A DNA stretch of 41,069 nt from a virus. Taxonomy: Duplodnaviria; Heunggongvirae; Uroviricota; Caudoviricetes. Made by a program: the position numbers and the translations under genes. Location: IMG/VR virus record IMGVR_UViG_2737471864_000010, positions 1 through 41,069 of that record; one strand, written 5' to 3'. The notes below the pieces were generated by a model that saw nothing but the letters and a program-made list of their open reading frames with translations, was not told the origin of the DNA and searched no databases. Below are positions 1,009-29,000 of this stretch, in pieces; positions within the stretch are counted from its first letter, which is position 1; each line of letters begins with the position of its first letter.

Positions 1009-1083
1009 GTCCTCTTAGTTAAATGGATATAACGAGCCCCTCCTAAGGGCTAATTGCAGGTTCGATTCCTGCAGGGGACACCA
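1009..1083 (+). tRNA. argW: tRNA-Arg, anticodon CCU
   Basis: 75-nt sequence GTCCTCTTAGTTAAATGGATATAACGAGCCCCTCCTAAGGGCTAATTGCAGGTTCGATTCCTGCAGGGGACACCA with cloverleaf-compatible stems, anticodon loop CTCCTAA, T-loop GGTTCGATTCC and encoded CCA. Confidence 0.9.
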
Positions 1084-5986: not shown

Positions 5987-6049
5987 GTCGTTAATTCCTA
6001 TGCGTGGTTTTACGATACCGAAGCCCTGACTGTTACCGCAGTTGGGGCT

Positions 6050-6253
6050 TCAACTTTCTGCTCTATCAGTTATATCTTTCCCTTCATATACTTCACCTAT
6101 ATTGCTAATGCTGGCAGAACATCCAAGATGCTTGTATCTTATGATGTCCAACACGCAGTCACTACACAGCATCCGACCTGTTTCTTTAGAGTAAATGTAT
6201 GTTTGATCAGCGTCTGATTCGCTAATGCCGCAGAAACAACATTCTTTACTCAT
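6050..6253 (-). CDS. Small Cys-rich (zinc-ribbon-like) hypothetical protein between arc and ant
   Basis: 67 aa with CCFC…CSDC cysteine pairs; start overlaps the arc stop. Confidence 0.4.
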   Translation of the reverse strand: MSKECCFCGISESDADQTYIYSKETGRMLCSDCVLDIIRYKHLGCSASISNIGEVYEGKDITDRAES

Positions 6254-23661: not shown

Positions 23662-24204
23662 TTAATTGATGAGTCCGGGGATTACGGTTTGCCCGTGCTG
23701 TTCAAGGCGTTCAATTCTAGCCATCAGCTGTGGCTTCTTAATTTTGCCCCAGCGATTTAGCAGGCGACCTGACATGCTGGCAACATCCTTCTCTTTCATG
23801 TACTCCAGCATTACGGCATTTCTCTCTTCTTCAAATTGACGATGACCAACCTGAAGCATGGCGTACATCCAGTTAAATGCGTTGATGTAAGCAATTTTGA
23901 TACGCATTGCTTCTTTTTTGGTGTAGGACATAACCAAAAGCATCAACCCATCCTTGCGGAGACGGTAGAATTTTTGCGGCTTACCATTCTGTAACTCATT
24001 GTTTTTATAGCAAAGCTCAAAGTTGAGCTTTGTATCAAACTCAGGAGGGCAAGCTTCTATGGTTCGCTCAATGTCACGAACCACGTTCTTCGGCAGCTTT
24101 CCAAATGCTTTTGCCACCATAAAAGAATCTGTAACCGGATCGTTGTTTGCCACAAAAATCAGTTCTCGGAAATCGATGCCGTTAACGATAGTTGGATAAT
24201 TCAT
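23662..24204 (-). CDS. Rha-family phage regulatory protein
   Basis: 180 aa; N-terminal …VAKAFGKLPKNVVRDIERTIE fits the Rha motif; located after the lysis genes as in P22-like phages. Confidence 0.55.
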   Translation of the reverse strand: MNYPTIVNGIDFRELIFVANNDPVTDSFMVAKAFGKLPKNVVRDIERTIEACPPEFDTKLNFELCYKNNELQNGKPQKFYRLRKDGLMLLVMSYTKKEAMRIKIAYINAFNWMYAMLQVGHRQFEEERNAVMLEYMKEKDVASMSGRLLNRWGKIKKPQLMARIERLEQHGQTVIPGLIN

Positions 24205-24349
24205 CAGTGCTCACCTTTTAGTGATGAACCTTGTCACACAGGATTCCGGCCCACAGAAAGGCACCGATAACCAAACCGGCATCCTCAAGGGTCATCCTGA
24301 AAGGTTCTGTGTTCATAAGTCGCGCGTGTGAAGCGCGTTTACTGCGGAC

Positions 24350-25519: not shown

Positions 25520-25860
25520 GCTCTACCCCTTCATTGAGGGGATTTGCTCTATTTAATTAGGAATAAGGTCGATTACTGATAGAACAAATCCAGGCTACTG
25601 TGTTTAGTAATCAGATTTGTTCGTGACCGATATGCACGGGCAAAACGGCAGGAGGTTGTTAGCGCAGCCTCTTGCCACCCGCTTTCACGAAGATCATGTG
25701 TAGAAGGCCGCAGCATAACTATCACTGATGAATTCAGGATAGCCAGTGGCTACGGCTCAGTTTGGGTTGTGCTGTTGCTGGGCGGCGATGACGCCTGTAC
25801 GCATTTGGTGATCCGGTTCTGCTTCCGGCATTCGCTTAATTCAGCACAACGGAAAGAGCA

Positions 25861-26330
25861 TTTATGGCTCGCATCGCGGGAAAAAGCCCACGGTAGAGAG
25901 TCGAACTCTACAAATACTCTTACCTGTTGTGCGCTCCGTTTCGTGGAGCTAACGGCGACGCTAGTACCGGTCTATGCGTCGCACCCTTGAGGGATTTACT
26001 AAGGCGACATGCCCGTTGTTACCCACTCAATTGGACCCTCCCCGTCGCCATCTGGGTCTAGTCAGGAATCGAACCTGCCGAGGGTACATTTGAATGGGTG
26101 CCCATTATTAATCACACCGGGCCAGTGCGCCGAATTTGGTAGCGGGGAGTCGGAAGACCCCGTGATTTTGGTTTCTTAGGCCGCCATCAACATCAAATCA
26201 TCGTTTGCATTTATCTTTGTGGTCAGTTTCTAAAAACCCGCAAAGTCGACAACTCTGACGAAAACTATCGTTGTGCTGCCACAACGATAAGAGCACTCGG
26301 TGCATTTAAGCCAAGCCCCATAAGGGAGAA
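25861..26330. other. Structured non-coding segment of about 470 bp between tR' and the holin, with a tRNA-like T-arm motif and terminator-like hairpins; appears inserted relative to the lambda arrangement I recall
   Basis: No ORF of 60 aa or more; contains GGCAGGTTCGATTCCTGAC on the minus strand, a 10-bp perfect inverted repeat TATCGTTGTG/CACAACGATA, and copies of CTCTTACCTGTT at about 25917 and 26333. Confidence 0.4.
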
Positions 26331-26352
26331 TGCTCTTACCTGTTACACAGAT

Positions 26353-26412
26353 ATAAAAAATCCCGAAACCGTTATGCAGGCTCTAACTATTACCTGCGAA
26401 CTGTTTCGGGAT
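26353..26412 (-). terminator. tR'-like terminator of the short late-leader (6S-type) transcript
   Basis: Long hairpin CCCGAAAC…GTTTCGGG followed by TTTTTT on the minus strand; matches lambda tR' as recalled. Confidence 0.7.
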
Positions 26413-26543
26413 TGCATTTTACAGACCTCTCAGCCTGCGATGGTTGGAGTTCCAGACGATACGTCGAAGTGACCAACTAGGCGGAATCGGTAGTAAGCGC
26501 CGCCTCTTTTTATCTCACTACCACAACGAGCGAATTAACCCAT

Positions 26544-27035
26544 CTATCCCATACTGGAGAATTCACCATGATATTTTATCCTGGCATTTTCCATTGCCTT
26601 TCTCGCCTCCTCGATATCGTCAAAACACCCTACATGAATCCTTTTACCATTGACCCTAATTCTTCCAACCCACTTGTTTGCAGCAGAATTAAAAGTCACC
26701 CCCTTCACACCAGATGAATTGTTTTTCCTCATCTTGCTGTTCCATGAGTTTTGAGTGTTAGTAACAACACGAAGATTGGCTATCCGGTTATCAGATCTAT
26801 CACCATTAATATGGTCAATCACATCGGTTGGCCAATCATTGTAAACCATCAGCCATGCAATTCTATGGACATATAGCCGCATTCCATAAAGTTTTACCTG
26901 CAGATATCCATTTGTTTTATAGCCAACAACAGCGCCATAGATAAATCTAGATGACCGAGGTGGATTCTTCCATGTAAGAATTCCAGTATCTGGATTGTAA
27001 TTAAAAAGTCTCAATGCATCTTCACGTTTTAACAT
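26544..27035 (-). CDS. HNH homing endonuclease with AP2-like domain (paralog 2 of 3), located inside the pR'-tR' leader
   Basis: 163 aa; NYNPDTG, HRIAW, DHINGDRSDNRIANLR, GVKGV…KYHGEF. Confidence 0.75.
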   Translation of the reverse strand: MLKREDALRLFNYNPDTGILTWKNPPRSSRFIYGAVVGYKTNGYLQVKLYGMRLYVHRIAWLMVYNDWPTDVIDHINGDRSDNRIANLRVVTNTQNSWNSKMRKNNSSGVKGVTFNSAANKWVGRIRVNGKRIHVGCFDDIEEARKAMENARIKYHGEFSSMG

Positions 27036-27235
27036 AGGCGAACCACATAGATATTAGAGCCTGCTGACATAGAAATATCACCACGAGAGAAGTCGCCAAA
27101 AGCGATATTTCTCAGGCTCTATTCCTATGTGCTCTCGAGTTTATGATGCGCATGTCAGTGCGCTTAGAACTTAAAGATGAGGTGGGTAAAAACTGAAAGA
27201 ATGTGAACGGATATAAATCTGCCATTCTTGGGTCA

Positions 27236-27264
27236 AATTTACCCAACTTTATTCAAAAAGTCAA
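27236..27264 (-). promoter_or_regulatory. Late promoter pR' (-35 TTGACT, 17-bp spacer, -10 TAAATT) with the start of the Q-utilisation region
   Basis: Minus strand TTGACTTTTTGAATAAAGTTGGGTAAATTTGAC…, near-identical to lambda pR' as recalled, about 40 bp downstream of Q. Confidence 0.7.
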
Positions 27265-27306
27265 TATTATGCCGTTAATATGTTGCCATCCGTGGCAATC
27301 ATGCAG

Positions 27307-27930
27307 CTAACGTGTGACCGCATTCAAAATGTTGTCTGCGATTGACTCTTCTTTGTGGCATTGCACCACCAGAGCATCATACAGCGGCTTAACAGTGCGT
27401 GACCAGGTGGGTTGAGTAAGGTTTGGGATTAGCATCGTTACAGCGCGATATGCGGCGCTTGCTGGCATTCTTGAATAGCCGACACCTTTGCATCTTCCGC
27501 ACTCTTTCTCAACAACTCTCCCCCACTGCTCTGTTTTGGCTATATCAACCGCACGGCCTGTACCGTGGCAATCTCTGCATCTTGCGCCCGGCGTCGCGGC
27601 ACTACGGCAATAATCCGCATAAGCGAATGTTGCGAGCACTTGCAGTACCTTTGCCTTAGTATTTCCTTCAAGCTTTGCCACGCCACGGTATTTCCCCGAT
27701 ACCTTGTGTGCAAATTGCATCAGATAGTTGATAGCCTTTTGTTTGTCATTCTGGCTGAGTTCATGCTTACCGCAGAATGCAGCCATTCCGAATCCGGCTT
27801 GTGATTGCGCCATCCCCATAGCAGCCATCACATCAGTACCGGAAAGAGAGTCAGAAGCCGTGGCCCGTGGTGAGTCGCTCATCATCGGGCTTTTTGGCGA
27901 ATGAAATTTAGCTACGCTTTCGAGTCTCAT
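27307..27930 (-). CDS. Q: Late-gene antiterminator Q (lambda Q type)
   Basis: 207 aa MRLESVAKFHSPKSPMMSDSPRATASDSLSGTDVMAAMGMAQSQAGFGMAAF…, which I recognise as essentially lambda Q. Confidence 0.9.
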   Translation of the reverse strand: MRLESVAKFHSPKSPMMSDSPRATASDSLSGTDVMAAMGMAQSQAGFGMAAFCGKHELSQNDKQKAINYLMQFAHKVSGKYRGVAKLEGNTKAKVLQVLATFAYADYCRSAATPGARCRDCHGTGRAVDIAKTEQWGRVVEKECGRCKGVGYSRMPASAAYRAVTMLIPNLTQPTWSRTVKPLYDALVVQCHKEESIADNILNAVTR

Positions 27931-28475
27931 CGTCTTCCCTTTTTGCCTGGCGTTACCATCAGGACGCCGTTAACTATTACGTGACGCTCGCCTTTGCTGT
28001 CTCGGTTGTACTTGAGCACTGTTCCTCTTGCGCAGGAAAGCATCCTCGCCACTTCGCTCTGATTGCCTCGTGTCTGGATAAGAAGCTCTGGTATCGTTTG
28101 AATTGTGGCGTTCATACGTTCTCCAGGTTCGGTGATTTTTATTCCAAGCCTTCCGCCTGGTACTTTCACACCACGAATTACGCGAATGTCATCGAATTGC
28201 TCGTCGTCTTCCGCAAATCCGGCGTGGATAAGGGAGTCGAGTAAACCTTTCAGGATGTTGTCGAGGTCGCGGCGGCGGGAGTCTGGAACGTCTGCAATGA
28301 CTTTGATGCGGAGTCGTGATTTGGTGAAAATGTCTAACTTGAGTTGCCGGATTATTTGCTGTACGTCTTTTCGGTATTTCTGGCCTTTATCGCTTATGTA
28401 ATATTGGCTTCCCCGTCTTCGCCAGTAGGTATTCAGCGACGGTGGGTACGGAAGTGTGAATCTGTATTCTGCCAT
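27927..28475 (-). CDS. rusA: Holliday-junction resolvase RusA fused in frame to a NinH-like helix-turn-helix domain
   Basis: 182 aa; first ~120 aa show RusA motifs (LPYPPSLNTYW, DVPDSRRRDLDNILKGLLDSL); last ~60 aa (MNATIQTIPELL…GNQSEVARMLSCARGTVLKY…) resemble lambda NinH. Confidence 0.7.
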   Translation of the reverse strand: MAEYRFTLPYPPSLNTYWRRRGSQYYISDKGQKYRKDVQQIIRQLKLDIFTKSRLRIKVIADVPDSRRRDLDNILKGLLDSLIHAGFAEDDEQFDDIRVIRGVKVPGGRLGIKITEPGERMNATIQTIPELLIQTRGNQSEVARMLSCARGTVLKYNRDSKGERHVIVNGVLMVTPGKKGRR

Positions 28476-29000
28476 TTATCCTCTCCCATGATTATGGTGA
28501 TACCCCAATCGTGATTCCGCCAATTTTCTGGCATTAACGGCTAGAGATATGTCATCGTATAATCCAAGAAATATCTTTTTATTATCACTGTTTATATATG
28601 CGCCCCACTTTTTATTCTTCTTATAGTAGGCAACACCCATTACTCCAGAGCGATTATTAATAGGCTTTTTTCTGTTCCTTGAGTTCTGTTTATCATCTAC
28701 AACGCGCAAATTGCATATTCTGTTATCGCTTTTAATTCCATTTATGTGGTCAATTTCCCCATCAGGTTCGCTTCCATAAAATGATATCCATGCGATTCTA
28801 TGAGCTCGACAAACTTTTTTATTTACAGATATACGAACGTATCCTTTTTCATCTATAGAACCAGCAATCTTACCGGCATATGTTGAATTCCAGCACTCTC
28901 TTACACTTTCTCTTCTTTTGTATATAAACAAACCTGTTTCGCTATTATATTCATACAATTCATTGATTTCTTTTTGTGTTGGATATCTTTTACCGTTCAT
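28476..29000 (-). CDS. HNH homing endonuclease with AP2-like domain (paralog 3 of 3)
   Basis: 174 aa; EYNSETG, HRIAW, DHINGIKSDNRICNLR, GVMGV; strongly AT-rich; start and stop abut the neighbouring genes. Confidence 0.75.
   Translation of the reverse strand: MNGKRYPTQKEINELYEYNSETGLFIYKRRESVRECWNSTYAGKIAGSIDEKGYVRISVNKKVCRAHRIAWISFYGSEPDGEIDHINGIKSDNRICNLRVVDDKQNSRNRKKPINNRSGVMGVAYYKKNKKWGAYINSDNKKIFLGLYDDISLAVNARKLAESRLGYHHNHGRG

What the first reader, a model, noticed from the sequence alone, without database searches (positions are those of the whole stretch)
26544..27270. HNH homing-endonuclease gene inserted inside the pR'-tR' late leader
A lambda-type pR' promoter sits about 40 bp after Q, and a tR'-type terminator sits at about 26353-26412. 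In lambda these bracket a short ~190-nt leader; here a 163-aa HNH-AP2 endonuclease gene lies between them, with similarity to the lambda leader diverging a few bases after the transcription start and resuming just before tR'. The gene would be transcribed from pR' in both terminated and Q-antiterminated modes, and the insertion changes the early transcribed sequence that normally contributes to Q engagement.
Basis: partly seen in the sequence, partly recalled or inferred. Interest (0 to 1): 0.65.

Follow-up and report, generated by a model that had tools for sequence, protein, structure and literature searches.

The report
HNH cassette inside phage late leader
A small optional cassette, made of an HNH nuclease gene and a folded RNA leader, sits three bases after the start of a lambda-like prophage's late transcript; the gene type is ordinary, the location is unusual, and the RNA leader belongs to a widespread family that has no match in Rfam.

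Summary
Phage genes lie on the minus strand. A lambda-type Q gene is followed by pR', whose transcript starts at 27229. A 683-nt segment (27227-26545) replaces only base +3 of the lambda 6S leader. The rest of that leader (+4 onward) and an unchanged tR' follow the HNH stop codon.

The segment holds a 64-nt spacer, a roughly 130-nt conserved structured RNA, and a 163-aa HNH_3 + AP2 protein with an intact catalytic motif. It is optional: 16 of 5426 complete E. coli genomes carry it, always at this site. Near-isogenic empty alleles, frameshifted copies and deleted copies exist, and the segment varies less than its flanks. Relatives down to 56% identity also sit directly behind Q genes. This fits a mobile, probably homing, endonuclease cassette, but no cleavage has been shown.

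The Q-loading elements survive, so the leader is remodelled rather than broken.

It is a hairpin that buries the ribosome-binding site and is locked by two short covarying contacts. It precedes Rha, antirepressor, KilA-N, Acb2/Tad1-like or HNH genes in late operons. The layout parallels Gifsy-1 antQ-isrK/C4-anrP.

The parts
27307..27930 (-). Lambda-type antiterminator Q gene (207 aa)
   Evidence: Pfam Antiterm PF03589, E=1.3e-57. About 97% nt identity to lambda Q. The protein is identical to that in 80 viral-contig loci.
27236..27264 (-). pR' late promoter: -35 TTGACT, 17-nt spacer holding the Q-binding element, -10 TAAATT
   Evidence: Promoter scan. Aligned with lambda pR'. The allele TTGACTTTTTGAATAAAGTTGGGTAAATT is the commonest among loci with an identical Q protein, whatever their leader type.
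27224..27229 (-). Transcript positions +1 to +6, AAGAAT: the sigma-dependent pause element (-10-like). Lambda has AACGAT here.
   Evidence: Position follows from the alignment to lambda 44587-44592. A+2 and T+6 are kept. The role of this element is taken from PMC9388147 and from general knowledge of lambda pR'.
26545..27227 (-). Optional 683-nt cassette replacing lambda base C+3
   Evidence: Boundaries come from lambda and from near-isogenic empty alleles. Present in 16 of 5426 complete E. coli genomes, one copy each, always at this site, at 98.8-99.6% identity. Absent from 50,697 phage records.
27166..27227 (-). Variable 5' spacer of the cassette (+3 to about +64), with no terminator
   Evidence: Alignments A2 and A4. 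Relatives L125 and L126 carry an intrinsic-terminator-like hairpin at this position, and the E. coli type does not. No terminator-like site was found.
27026..27165 (-). Conserved structured RNA leader ('gate'): hairpin H0, then a long hairpin whose base pairs with the region just upstream of the start codon, plus two pseudoknot contacts
   Evidence: Covariance model R1 scores 139.7 bits. 96.8% of cells are paired, against 34-55% when partners are slid, and 6 pairs show double-sided changes. The loop-loop contact is 100% paired. RNAalifold finds the same hairpins independently. MFE -59 kcal/mol, z = -3.46. No Rfam match.
26544..27035 (-). HNH_3 + AP2 endonuclease gene (163 aa)
   Evidence: Pfam. 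PHROG 99, E=4.7e-76. D74, H75, N77, D82, N83, N87 and N99 are invariant and N96 is nearly invariant across 23 relatives.
26413..26544 (-). Body of the lambda 6S leader (lambda +4 onward), now downstream of the HNH stop codon
   Evidence: 210 of 217 nt identical to lambda 44589-44805.
26353..26412 (-). tR' terminator (compound hairpin plus U tract)
   Evidence: Identical to lambda tR' from AAAATGCAATCCCGAAAC to GGGATTTTTTATATCTG.

Best explanation
A 683-nt mobile cassette has entered the late-operon leader of a lambda-Q-type prophage at transcript position +3.

**Order on the RNA:** pR' start, then pause element AAGAAT, a 64-nt spacer, a roughly 130-nt RNA gate, the HNH-AP2 ORF, the full lambda 6S body, and tR'.

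**Shown:**
- The cassette is optional and site-specific.
- It decays in some lineages.
- It is more uniform than its flanks.
- The protein keeps the His-Me catalytic motif.
- The Q-loading DNA elements and tR' are intact.
- The leader RNA is a covarying structure.

**Inferred:**
1. RNA polymerase starting at pR' transcribes the gate and the HNH gene up to tR' without Q. The mRNA is therefore made whenever pR' fires, and also as part of the long late transcript once Q loads.
2. Translation is normally held down because the basal helix of the gate pairs with the stretch that carries the ribosome-binding site. The two short pseudoknot contacts stabilise or switch that hairpin.
3. The endonuclease cuts or nicks cassette-free late leaders of related phages. 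The intact target would span roughly -5 to +15 and is split in carriers. Repair from the carrier copies the cassette in, which is homing, or at least excludes the rival allele.
For: **Insertion anatomy.** The lambda alignment and near-isogenic empty alleles define a clean insertion at +3.

**Distribution.** The cassette is in 16 of 5426 complete E. coli genomes, single copy, always behind Q. About 1666 genomes carry the Q region.

**Life-cycle stages in viral contigs**:
- intact copies;
- frameshifted copies (L009, L022);
- internally deleted copies retaining aa 1-23 plus 132-163 (L032, L033);
- leader-only derivatives, consistent with deletion between two TAGAGCCTG repeats (L002, L003 and 7 viral contigs).

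**Uniformity.** Relative to the window, the cassette differs by 3-9 of 682 nt. The adjacent Q gene differs by up to 33 of 624 nt and the 79-nt promoter stretch by 1-5 nt, so the left edge is sharp at +1.

**Conserved location.** Relatives at 86, 74, 66, 62 and 56% aa identity all lie 250-270 nt after a Q gene. Three of those Q proteins are only 32-38% identical to lambda Q.

**Protein.** HNH_3 and AP2 domains with invariant D74-H75, N77, D82-N83, N87 and N99.

**Transcription.** No promoter-like site other than pR' lies upstream, and no terminator-like site precedes the ORF. tR' is identical to lambda. The Q cassette logic comes from PMC9388147.

**RNA gate.** Covariation is documented. A second copy in this window (24197-24340) keeps both pseudoknot contacts with entirely different letters. 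Gifsy-1 shows experimentally that an RNA-gated gene occupies this same slot behind antQ.
Against: - No cleavage, target site or biased inheritance has been demonstrated.
- The low divergence of the cassette could reflect purifying selection plus ordinary recombination rather than homing.
- No co-conversion gradient is seen in the flanks.
- The constant Q-proximal position of relatives could be shared ancestry of the slot rather than repeated homing.
- The same RNA gate precedes non-nuclease genes, so the cassette may move as a gate-plus-cargo unit without help from the nuclease.
- The start codon has only a weak Shine-Dalgarno match, so the level of translation is unknown.
- The transcribed sequence at the lambda pause site (+15 to +18) differs: UAUA here against UCGC in lambda. 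Pause position and Q loading are therefore untested.
- The sequences in the covariation alignments are related to one another, which inflates shuffle-based support.
Confidence: 0.6

Rival explanations
1. Gate-plus-cargo moron moved by ordinary recombination. The HNH gene is one of many interchangeable cargo genes behind this RNA gate. It reached the pR' leader by illegitimate or homologous recombination between lambdoid phages. It serves the phage as a weapon or exclusion function, for example by cutting competitor or host DNA, and does not propagate itself.
For: - The same gate precedes Rha, P22_AR_N antirepressor, KilA-N, AlpA-like, Acb2/Tad1-like and unknown genes.
- It occupies two different late-operon slots: behind Q, and within or after the lysis cassette.
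- No co-conversion tract is seen.
- The late leader behind one Q protein is already a mosaic hotspot with at least four leader types.
Against: - The HNH_3 + AP2 domain architecture is typical of free-standing phage endonuclease genes.
- Frameshifted and deleted copies fit the gain-decay-loss cycle of selfish endonuclease genes.
- The cassette is clearly more uniform than both flanks.
- A second paralogous HNH gene in the same prophage is also a precise presence/absence insertion.
Confidence: 0.28
2. Inactive relic. The ORF is a decaying passenger with no current activity, and the conserved 5' leader is retained for other reasons.
For: Some lineages carry frameshifted or internally deleted copies. 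The cassette is rare, at about 1% of Q-lambda-type prophages.
Against: In this window the ORF is full length, and all family-invariant catalytic residues are intact. Most carriers encode proteins 98-100% identical over 163 aa.
Confidence: 0.06
3. Packaging-associated HNH. The protein would be a terminase cofactor like HK97 gp74, needed for DNA packaging.
For: HNH proteins are known packaging cofactors in some phages. This rests on general knowledge (Kala et al. 2014), seen only in the reference list of PMC12315714.
Against: - The gene is dispensable: near-isogenic prophages lack it.
- It lies next to Q, not next to terminase.
- Its domains are HNH_3 + AP2, not those of the gp74 type.
- The prophage carries a P22-type sar RNA, which points to a P22-like immI region.
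Confidence: 0.03
4. Late-transcription regulator. The AP2 DNA-binding domain would bind the pR' region and tune late transcription.
For: The AP2 domain is present and the gene lies inside the regulatory leader.
Against: An intact nuclease motif is conserved. The gene is absent from about 99% of phages using the same Q and pR'. No data point to such binding.
Confidence: 0.03

Closest known systems
Lambda Q / pR' / 6S RNA / tR' antitermination cassette
   Same: Q protein family, promoter hexamers, Q-binding region, -10-like pause element at +1 to +6 with A+2 and T+6, the 6S body and an identical tR' (PMC9388147).
   Different: A 683-nt cassette sits at +3. The terminated leader is about 876 nt instead of 194 nt and encodes a protein. 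Sequence from +9 onward, including the lambda pause site at +16/+17, is replaced.
Free-standing phage homing endonuclease genes (HNH / His-Me finger type, such as I-HmuI and T4 Mob/Seg-like genes) and bacterial or phage HNH-AP2 proteins
   Same: A small intergenic ORF with a nuclease domain plus a DNA-binding domain, presence/absence at a fixed site, decayed copies, and low divergence relative to flanks.
   Different: No solved close relative exists; I-HmuI 1u3e matches only at E=0.66. The target site is unknown. The insertion lies in a transcription-regulatory leader rather than between or within coding genes. It also carries its own conserved structured 5' leader.
Gifsy-1 antQ - isrK - orf45 (C4 RNA) - anrP
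   Same: It occupies the same slot: a roughly 270-nt RNA-rich leader directly after a Q gene, followed by an accessory gene and then the lysis genes. The read-through mRNA is translationally inactive until its structure is remodelled (PMC4825925; Rfam hits isrK, c4-a1b1 and C4 in L161).
   Different: The cargo is an antirepressor, not a nuclease. The RNA is of the C4/IsrK type, and model R1 scores only 7.8 bits there. In Gifsy-1 a terminator lies before the gate, whereas in the window it lies after the cargo gene.
P1/P7 c4 antisense RNA with its a/b target boxes (immI: c4-icd-ant)
   Same: Two short (5-8 nt) complementary contacts between loops of a structured RNA and nearby sequences, upstream of an antirepressor-type gene. 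The contacts vary between elements while staying complementary. The P1/P7 side of this comparison rests on general knowledge; the window side is.
   Different: There is no sequence or covariance-model similarity to Rfam clan CL00128. No downstream a2/b2-like repeat of the boxes was found. Both partners lie on one transcript and are compatible with a pseudoknot, so action in trans is unproven.

Membership tests
HNH (His-Me finger) endonuclease, Pfam HNH_3 | Profile match above the curated cut-off | tested here: met
   PF13392 scores 61.5 bits against a cut-off of 24.8. PHROG 99, E=4.7e-76.
HNH (His-Me finger) endonuclease, Pfam HNH_3 | Catalytic D-H ... N ... N motif conserved | tested here: met
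   D74, H75, N77, D82, N83, N87 and N99 are invariant, and N96 is at least 90% conserved, in 23 relatives.
HNH (His-Me finger) endonuclease, Pfam HNH_3 | Metal-dependent DNA cleavage or nicking | not testable with these tools
   Needs purified protein.
AP2 DNA-binding domain | Profile match above the curated cut-off | tested here: met
   PF00847 scores 33.6 bits against a cut-off of 33.3, which is borderline. The best PDB sequence matches are plant AP2/ERF factors, with WRI1 at E=0.0026.
Homing endonuclease gene (functional class) | Presence/absence polymorphism at one defined site in otherwise homologous genomes | tested here: met
   16 of 5426 genomes carry it, always behind Q. Near-isogenic empty alleles exist.
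Homing endonuclease gene (functional class) | Gain-decay-loss cycle (degenerate copies) | tested here: met
   Frameshifted, internally deleted and leader-only derivatives were found.
Homing endonuclease gene (functional class) | Co-conversion of flanking markers | tested here: inconclusive
   The cassette has 0-2 differences per 192 nt (leader) and 2-8 per 490 nt (ORF). The adjacent 79-nt promoter stretch has 1-5, so no gradient is visible.
Homing endonuclease gene (functional class) | Site-specific cleavage of the empty allele and biased inheritance | not testable with these tools
   Needs cleavage assays and phage crosses.
Lambda-type Q antitermination cassette | Q gene, pR' with Q-binding region, -10-like pause element and downstream terminator | tested here: met
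   The pause hexamer AAGAAT keeps A+2 and T+6.
Lambda-type Q antitermination cassette | Sigma-dependent pause at about +16 and Q-dependent read-through of tR' | not testable with these tools
   The sequence at +9 to +25 differs from lambda. In vitro transcription is needed.
C4 antisense RNA / IsrK (Rfam RF01695, RF03163, RF01394) | Covariance-model match | tested here: not met
   No hit at E<=5-10 on either gate copy or on a Xenorhabdus copy. The same models hit Gifsy-1 strongly, and R1 does not hit Gifsy-1.
C4 antisense RNA / IsrK (Rfam RF01695, RF03163, RF01394) | Two short variable complementary boxes linking a structured RNA to nearby sequence upstream of an accessory gene | tested here: met
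   Seven loop types and at least eight 'a' types were found. Complementarity within an element is 6-7 nt (one element scored 4 nt under the automatic loop trimming). It is mostly 2-4 nt between unrelated types, and higher between types whose boxes differ at a single base. This is a resemblance in logic, not evidence of homology.

The most novel reading that the evidence does not exclude
The roughly 130-140-nt leader in front of the HNH gene may belong to an undescribed, widespread class of phage RNA 'gate'. It is a long hairpin that buries the ribosome-binding region. It is locked or switched by two short contacts that are hypervariable and assort independently of each other.

On this reading the gate controls translation of accessory 'conflict' genes embedded in late operons of lambdoid and P22-like prophages. 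The cargo genes seen are Rha, antirepressor, KilA-N, AlpA-like, Acb2/Tad1-like and HNH. Hosts include E. coli (with Stx2a phages), Salmonella and Xenorhabdus. Its function would parallel c4 and IsrK.

The HNH endonuclease may use this conserved gate as a landing pad, which would explain cargo replacement. Two copies with orthogonal contacts coexist in this one prophage.
Probability: 0.45. Interest if true: 0.7.

Novelty: new variant of a known kind. Interest (0 to 1): 0.55.

Why it matters
**For lambda biology.** This is a natural construct in which a protein-coding, RNA-gated gene sits between the Q-loading site and tR'.
- It tests how much of the early transcribed region Q needs, because only +1 to +8 is kept.
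- It predicts a Q-independent mRNA of about 876 nt in place of 6S RNA. A selfish nuclease gene could thus be transcribed even in lysogens.

**For phage evolution.** It shows the late leader as a recurrent insertion slot. Q-proximal cargo is seen with several distinct Q proteins and in Gifsy-1.

**For RNA biology.** The more valuable product is the leader itself: a large family absent from Rfam, with clear compensatory variation in two specificity contacts. It is present in medically relevant Stx2a phages and offers a testable model of translational gating of antirepressor, Rha and anti-defence genes.

Tried and rejected
- **Rfam.** Searches at gathering and at permissive E-values found no family over the cassette leader, the second gate copy or a Xenorhabdus copy.
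- **Model R1 on Gifsy-1.** No real match (7.8 bits), so homology with C4/IsrK was dropped and only the analogy kept.
- **Phage GenBank collection.** No record carries the cassette. There are only three short hits inside HNH ORFs.
- **PDB sequence search.** Only weak AP2 and I-HmuI matches. Structure prediction was not run, because the Pfam evidence sufficed.
- **Literature.** Searches for an HNH gene in the late leader, for the RNA gate and for phage tmRNA-like elements found nothing specific.
- **Co-conversion test.** It gave no gradient.
- **'Replacement of the leader'.** Considered and rejected: the whole lambda leader from +4 is retained.
- **A terminator between pR' and the ORF.** Considered and rejected: only a weak AU-rich 5' hairpin with a non-adjacent U run is present, and the scan did not call it.
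- **A coding explanation for leader conservation.** Considered and rejected: the 44-aa ORF at 27112-27246 has no family, and variation follows base-pairing, not codons.
- **ARAGORN on the neighbouring tmRNA-like module.** It gave only a dubious call at a very low threshold.

Full report
**Observation**

All phage genes in this part of the window are on the minus strand. A 207-aa lambda-type Q gene (27307-27930) is followed 43 bp later by a promoter with lambda's pR' hexamers: TTGACT at 27264-27259 and TAAATT at 27241-27236. Global alignment to lambda NC_001416 gives two collinear blocks at about 97% identity. Window 27930-27228 matches lambda 43886-44588, and window 26545-26329 matches lambda 44589-44805.

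With lambda's 6S RNA start at 44587, the window's transcript starts at 27229. This assignment is based on the position of the hexamers and on the known AACGAT pause element at +1 to +6, which is general knowledge. Left-hand identity runs through +2. Right-hand identity begins at the G of the HNH stop codon, which equals lambda G+4. A 683-nt segment (27227-26545) therefore replaces the single base C+3.

The entire 6S body and a base-identical tR' (26412-26355) follow the gene. Natural empty alleles exist. L068 has the uninterrupted junction GGGTAAATTTGACCCAACGATGGGTTAATTCGC. It differs from the window at only 9 of 699 nt upstream and 2 of 202 nt downstream.

**The gene**

The 163-aa product matches HNH_3 (61.5 bits against a cut-off of 24.8) and AP2 (33.6 against 33.3), and PHROG 99 'HNH endonuclease' at 4.7e-76. 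In an alignment of 23 relatives, D74, H75, N77, D82, N83, N87 and N99 are invariant and N96 is nearly so. The His-Me catalytic core is therefore intact. No close solved structure exists.

**Is the cassette mobile?**

The cassette occurs in 16 of 5426 complete E. coli genomes. It is single copy, always behind Q, and 98.8-99.6% identical. About 1666 genomes carry the Q region without it, and none of 50,697 phage records has it.

Viral contigs show several states:
- intact copies;
- frameshifted copies (L009, L022);
- an in-frame internal deletion (L032, L033);
- leader-only derivatives (L002, L003 and seven others).

The leader-only junction is consistent with a deletion between the TAGAGCCTG in the cassette leader and the TAGAGCCTG inside tR'.

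Relative to the window, carriers differ at 3-9 of 682 cassette positions. They differ at up to 33 of 624 positions in Q and at 1-5 of 79 positions in the promoter stretch. The cassette is therefore more uniform than its flanks and has a sharp left edge at +1. These are the expected marks of a selfish endonuclease cassette. However, no co-conversion gradient is visible, and neither cleavage nor biased inheritance can be tested here.

**A recurrent slot**

Relatives at 86, 74, 66, 62 and 56% identity all sit 250-270 nt downstream of a Q gene and upstream of lysis genes. Three of those Q proteins (254-276 aa) are only 32-38% identical to lambda Q. A relative at 48% identity lies elsewhere.

**Q engagement**

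The window's promoter/Q-binding allele is the commonest one among 80 loci that encode an identical Q protein, whatever leader follows. Those loci carry at least four leader types. The cassette-free types share AACGATGG at +1 to +8 and diverge from +9.

The cassette type reads AAGAATGG. It keeps A+2 and T+6 and is closer to TATAAT than lambda's hexamer. A structural study built its loading complex with a consensus version of this element (PMC9388147). The DNA elements for pausing and Q loading are therefore present. Sequence at lambda's pause position differs, so pause position and loading efficiency remain open.

No terminator-like site lies between pR' and the ORF. The inference is that the gene is transcribed up to tR' without Q and beyond it with Q. 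In relatives L125 and L126 a terminator-like hairpin precedes the gate, so in those the gene would be Q-dependent.

**The leader is a structured RNA family**

The roughly 130 nt before the start codon are more conserved than the protein across relatives. A motif scan of one genome per species found the same element in 12 Xenorhabdus species, often two or three copies per genome. There it lies 10-15 nt before the start codons of different genes: P22_AR_N antirepressors, Rha, an Acb2/Tad1-hairpin protein and a 44%-identical HNH. It sits between endolysin and Rz/Rz1 and is preceded by a terminator-like hairpin.

The structure has four parts:
- a small hairpin, H0;
- a long two-part hairpin whose base pairs with the stretch carrying the Shine-Dalgarno sequence;
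- a contact between the H0 loop and an internal loop of the long hairpin;
- a contact between a single-stranded box 'a' and the apical loop.

On 25 distinct copies, 96.8% of cells are paired, against 34-55% when partners are slid. Six pairs show double-sided changes, and the loop contact is 100% paired with GC/AU exchange. RNAalifold recovers the nested hairpins independently. The window's leader folds at -59 kcal/mol, z = -3.46.

A covariance model (R1) finds 57 copies in the loci held. Post-lysis copies in many E. coli prophages score 54-70 bits. A very diverged second copy in this window (24197-24340, 27 bits) sits between a terminator and a Rha gene. That copy type is 98-99% identical in Stx2a phages such as P13374, and about 90% identical in Salmonella ST104 and ST64B.

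Across subtypes there are seven loop types and at least eight 'a' types. Complementarity within an element is 6-7 nt; one element scored 4 nt under the automatic loop trimming. It is mostly 2-4 nt between unrelated types and higher between types whose boxes differ at a single base. The two contacts assort independently. Cargo genes also include KilA-N(+P63C) and an AlpA-like HTH protein. No Rfam family matches any copy.

**Comparison with known systems**

In Gifsy-1 the 272 nt between antQ and the antirepressor gene anrP carry isrK, the c4-a1b1 boxes and a C4 antisense RNA. The published work shows three things (PMC4825925):
- IsrK is the terminated leader RNA;
- read-through mRNA is translationally inactive;
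- short IsrK activates it in trans.

This is the same slot and the same kind of logic, with a different RNA (R1 scores 7.8 bits there) and a different cargo. The two short variable contacts recall the a/b boxes of P1/P7 c4, a comparison that rests on general knowledge. Here, though, both partners are on one transcript and are compatible with a pseudoknot. Action in trans is therefore only a possibility.

**Verdict**

The finding is real and correctly located. It is best read as an RNA-gated HNH-AP2 endonuclease cassette, probably homing, inserted at +3 of a lambda-type late transcript. Q-loading elements and tR' are preserved. The gene type is ordinary. The location and the leader RNA are the unusual parts.

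Noticed in passing
window 25861-26328 (minus strand), just downstream of tR': A second insertion relative to lambda replaces lambda 44806-44846 and contains a tmRNA-like module. Rfam tmRNA models hit it weakly (E about 0.006-0.02).

It has a resume-codon consensus followed by a 10-codon tag, ANDDLMLMAA-stop. Five unrelated phages (Bas79, PJ16, Klebsiella MK54, Cronobacter CS01, Salmonella Akira) carry the same roughly 170-nt core. Their tags are ANDDVVLMAA, ANEERFLMAA, ANEEMYLAVA, ANDDLMLMAA and ANDDVILMAA. These show synonymous third-position changes and a compensatory hairpin after the stop.

Some part of the module matches in 438 of 5426 E. coli genomes (41 at 80% coverage or more) and 491 phage records. 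It is unannotated in every record examined. No canonical tRNA-like domain was found, and ARAGORN is negative at normal thresholds. No literature was found in the library.
   Followed up: partly
window 24197-24340 (minus strand) and ORF 23662-24204: A second, strongly diverged copy of the RNA gate (R1, 27 bits, E=7e-5 for the whole window). It lies after Rz/Rz1 and a terminator-like hairpin (GAGCCTCGCGATGCGGGGCTTTTTT) and directly before a 180-aa Rha-family gene. Both pseudoknot contacts are kept with different letters: UCACAC/GUGUGA and CACAGAA/UUCUGUG. The same copy type occurs in Stx2a phages and in P22-like Salmonella phages.
   Followed up: yes
window 28476-29000 (minus strand): A second HNH_3 endonuclease gene (174 aa, 40% identical to the first). 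It is wedged precisely between a DUF1364 gene and rusA. It is present in 32 of 5426 E. coli genomes, while about 895 carry at least part of the flanks. This is another presence/absence endonuclease insertion in the same prophage, and it has no R1-type leader.
   Followed up: partly
window 27927-28475 (minus strand): A single 182-aa ORF carries both a RusA domain (residues 9-114) and a NinH domain (121-179). In related prophages (L002, L003, L006) these are separate genes.
   Followed up: no
L002 2501-2720 and L003 2501-2650 (E. coli prophages), plus 7 viral contigs: Leader-only derivatives. The first roughly 118 nt of the cassette run straight into the 3' half of tR', consistent with deletion between two TAGAGCCTG repeats. 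The HNH gene, the 6S body and the 5' half of the terminator are lost. tRNA-Asn and tRNA-Thr genes and a class II holin follow. Whether any terminator remains before the late genes was not examined.
   Followed up: partly
window about 26325-26345 and about 25845-25935; lambda 44790-44870: A conserved long stem (CACAACAGGTAAGAGCA ... TGCTCTTTCCGTTGTG) occurs just after tR' in lambda. It flanks the tmRNA-like module on both sides in the window, and it recurs next to that module in unrelated phages. Its function is unknown.
   Followed up: no
window 5988-6055 (+) and 1009-1083 (+): A P22-type sar antisense RNA (Rfam 85.7 bits) and a tRNA-Arg(CCU) gene near the window's left end. They suggest a P22-like immI region and a prophage integrated next to a tRNA-Arg gene.
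   Followed up: no
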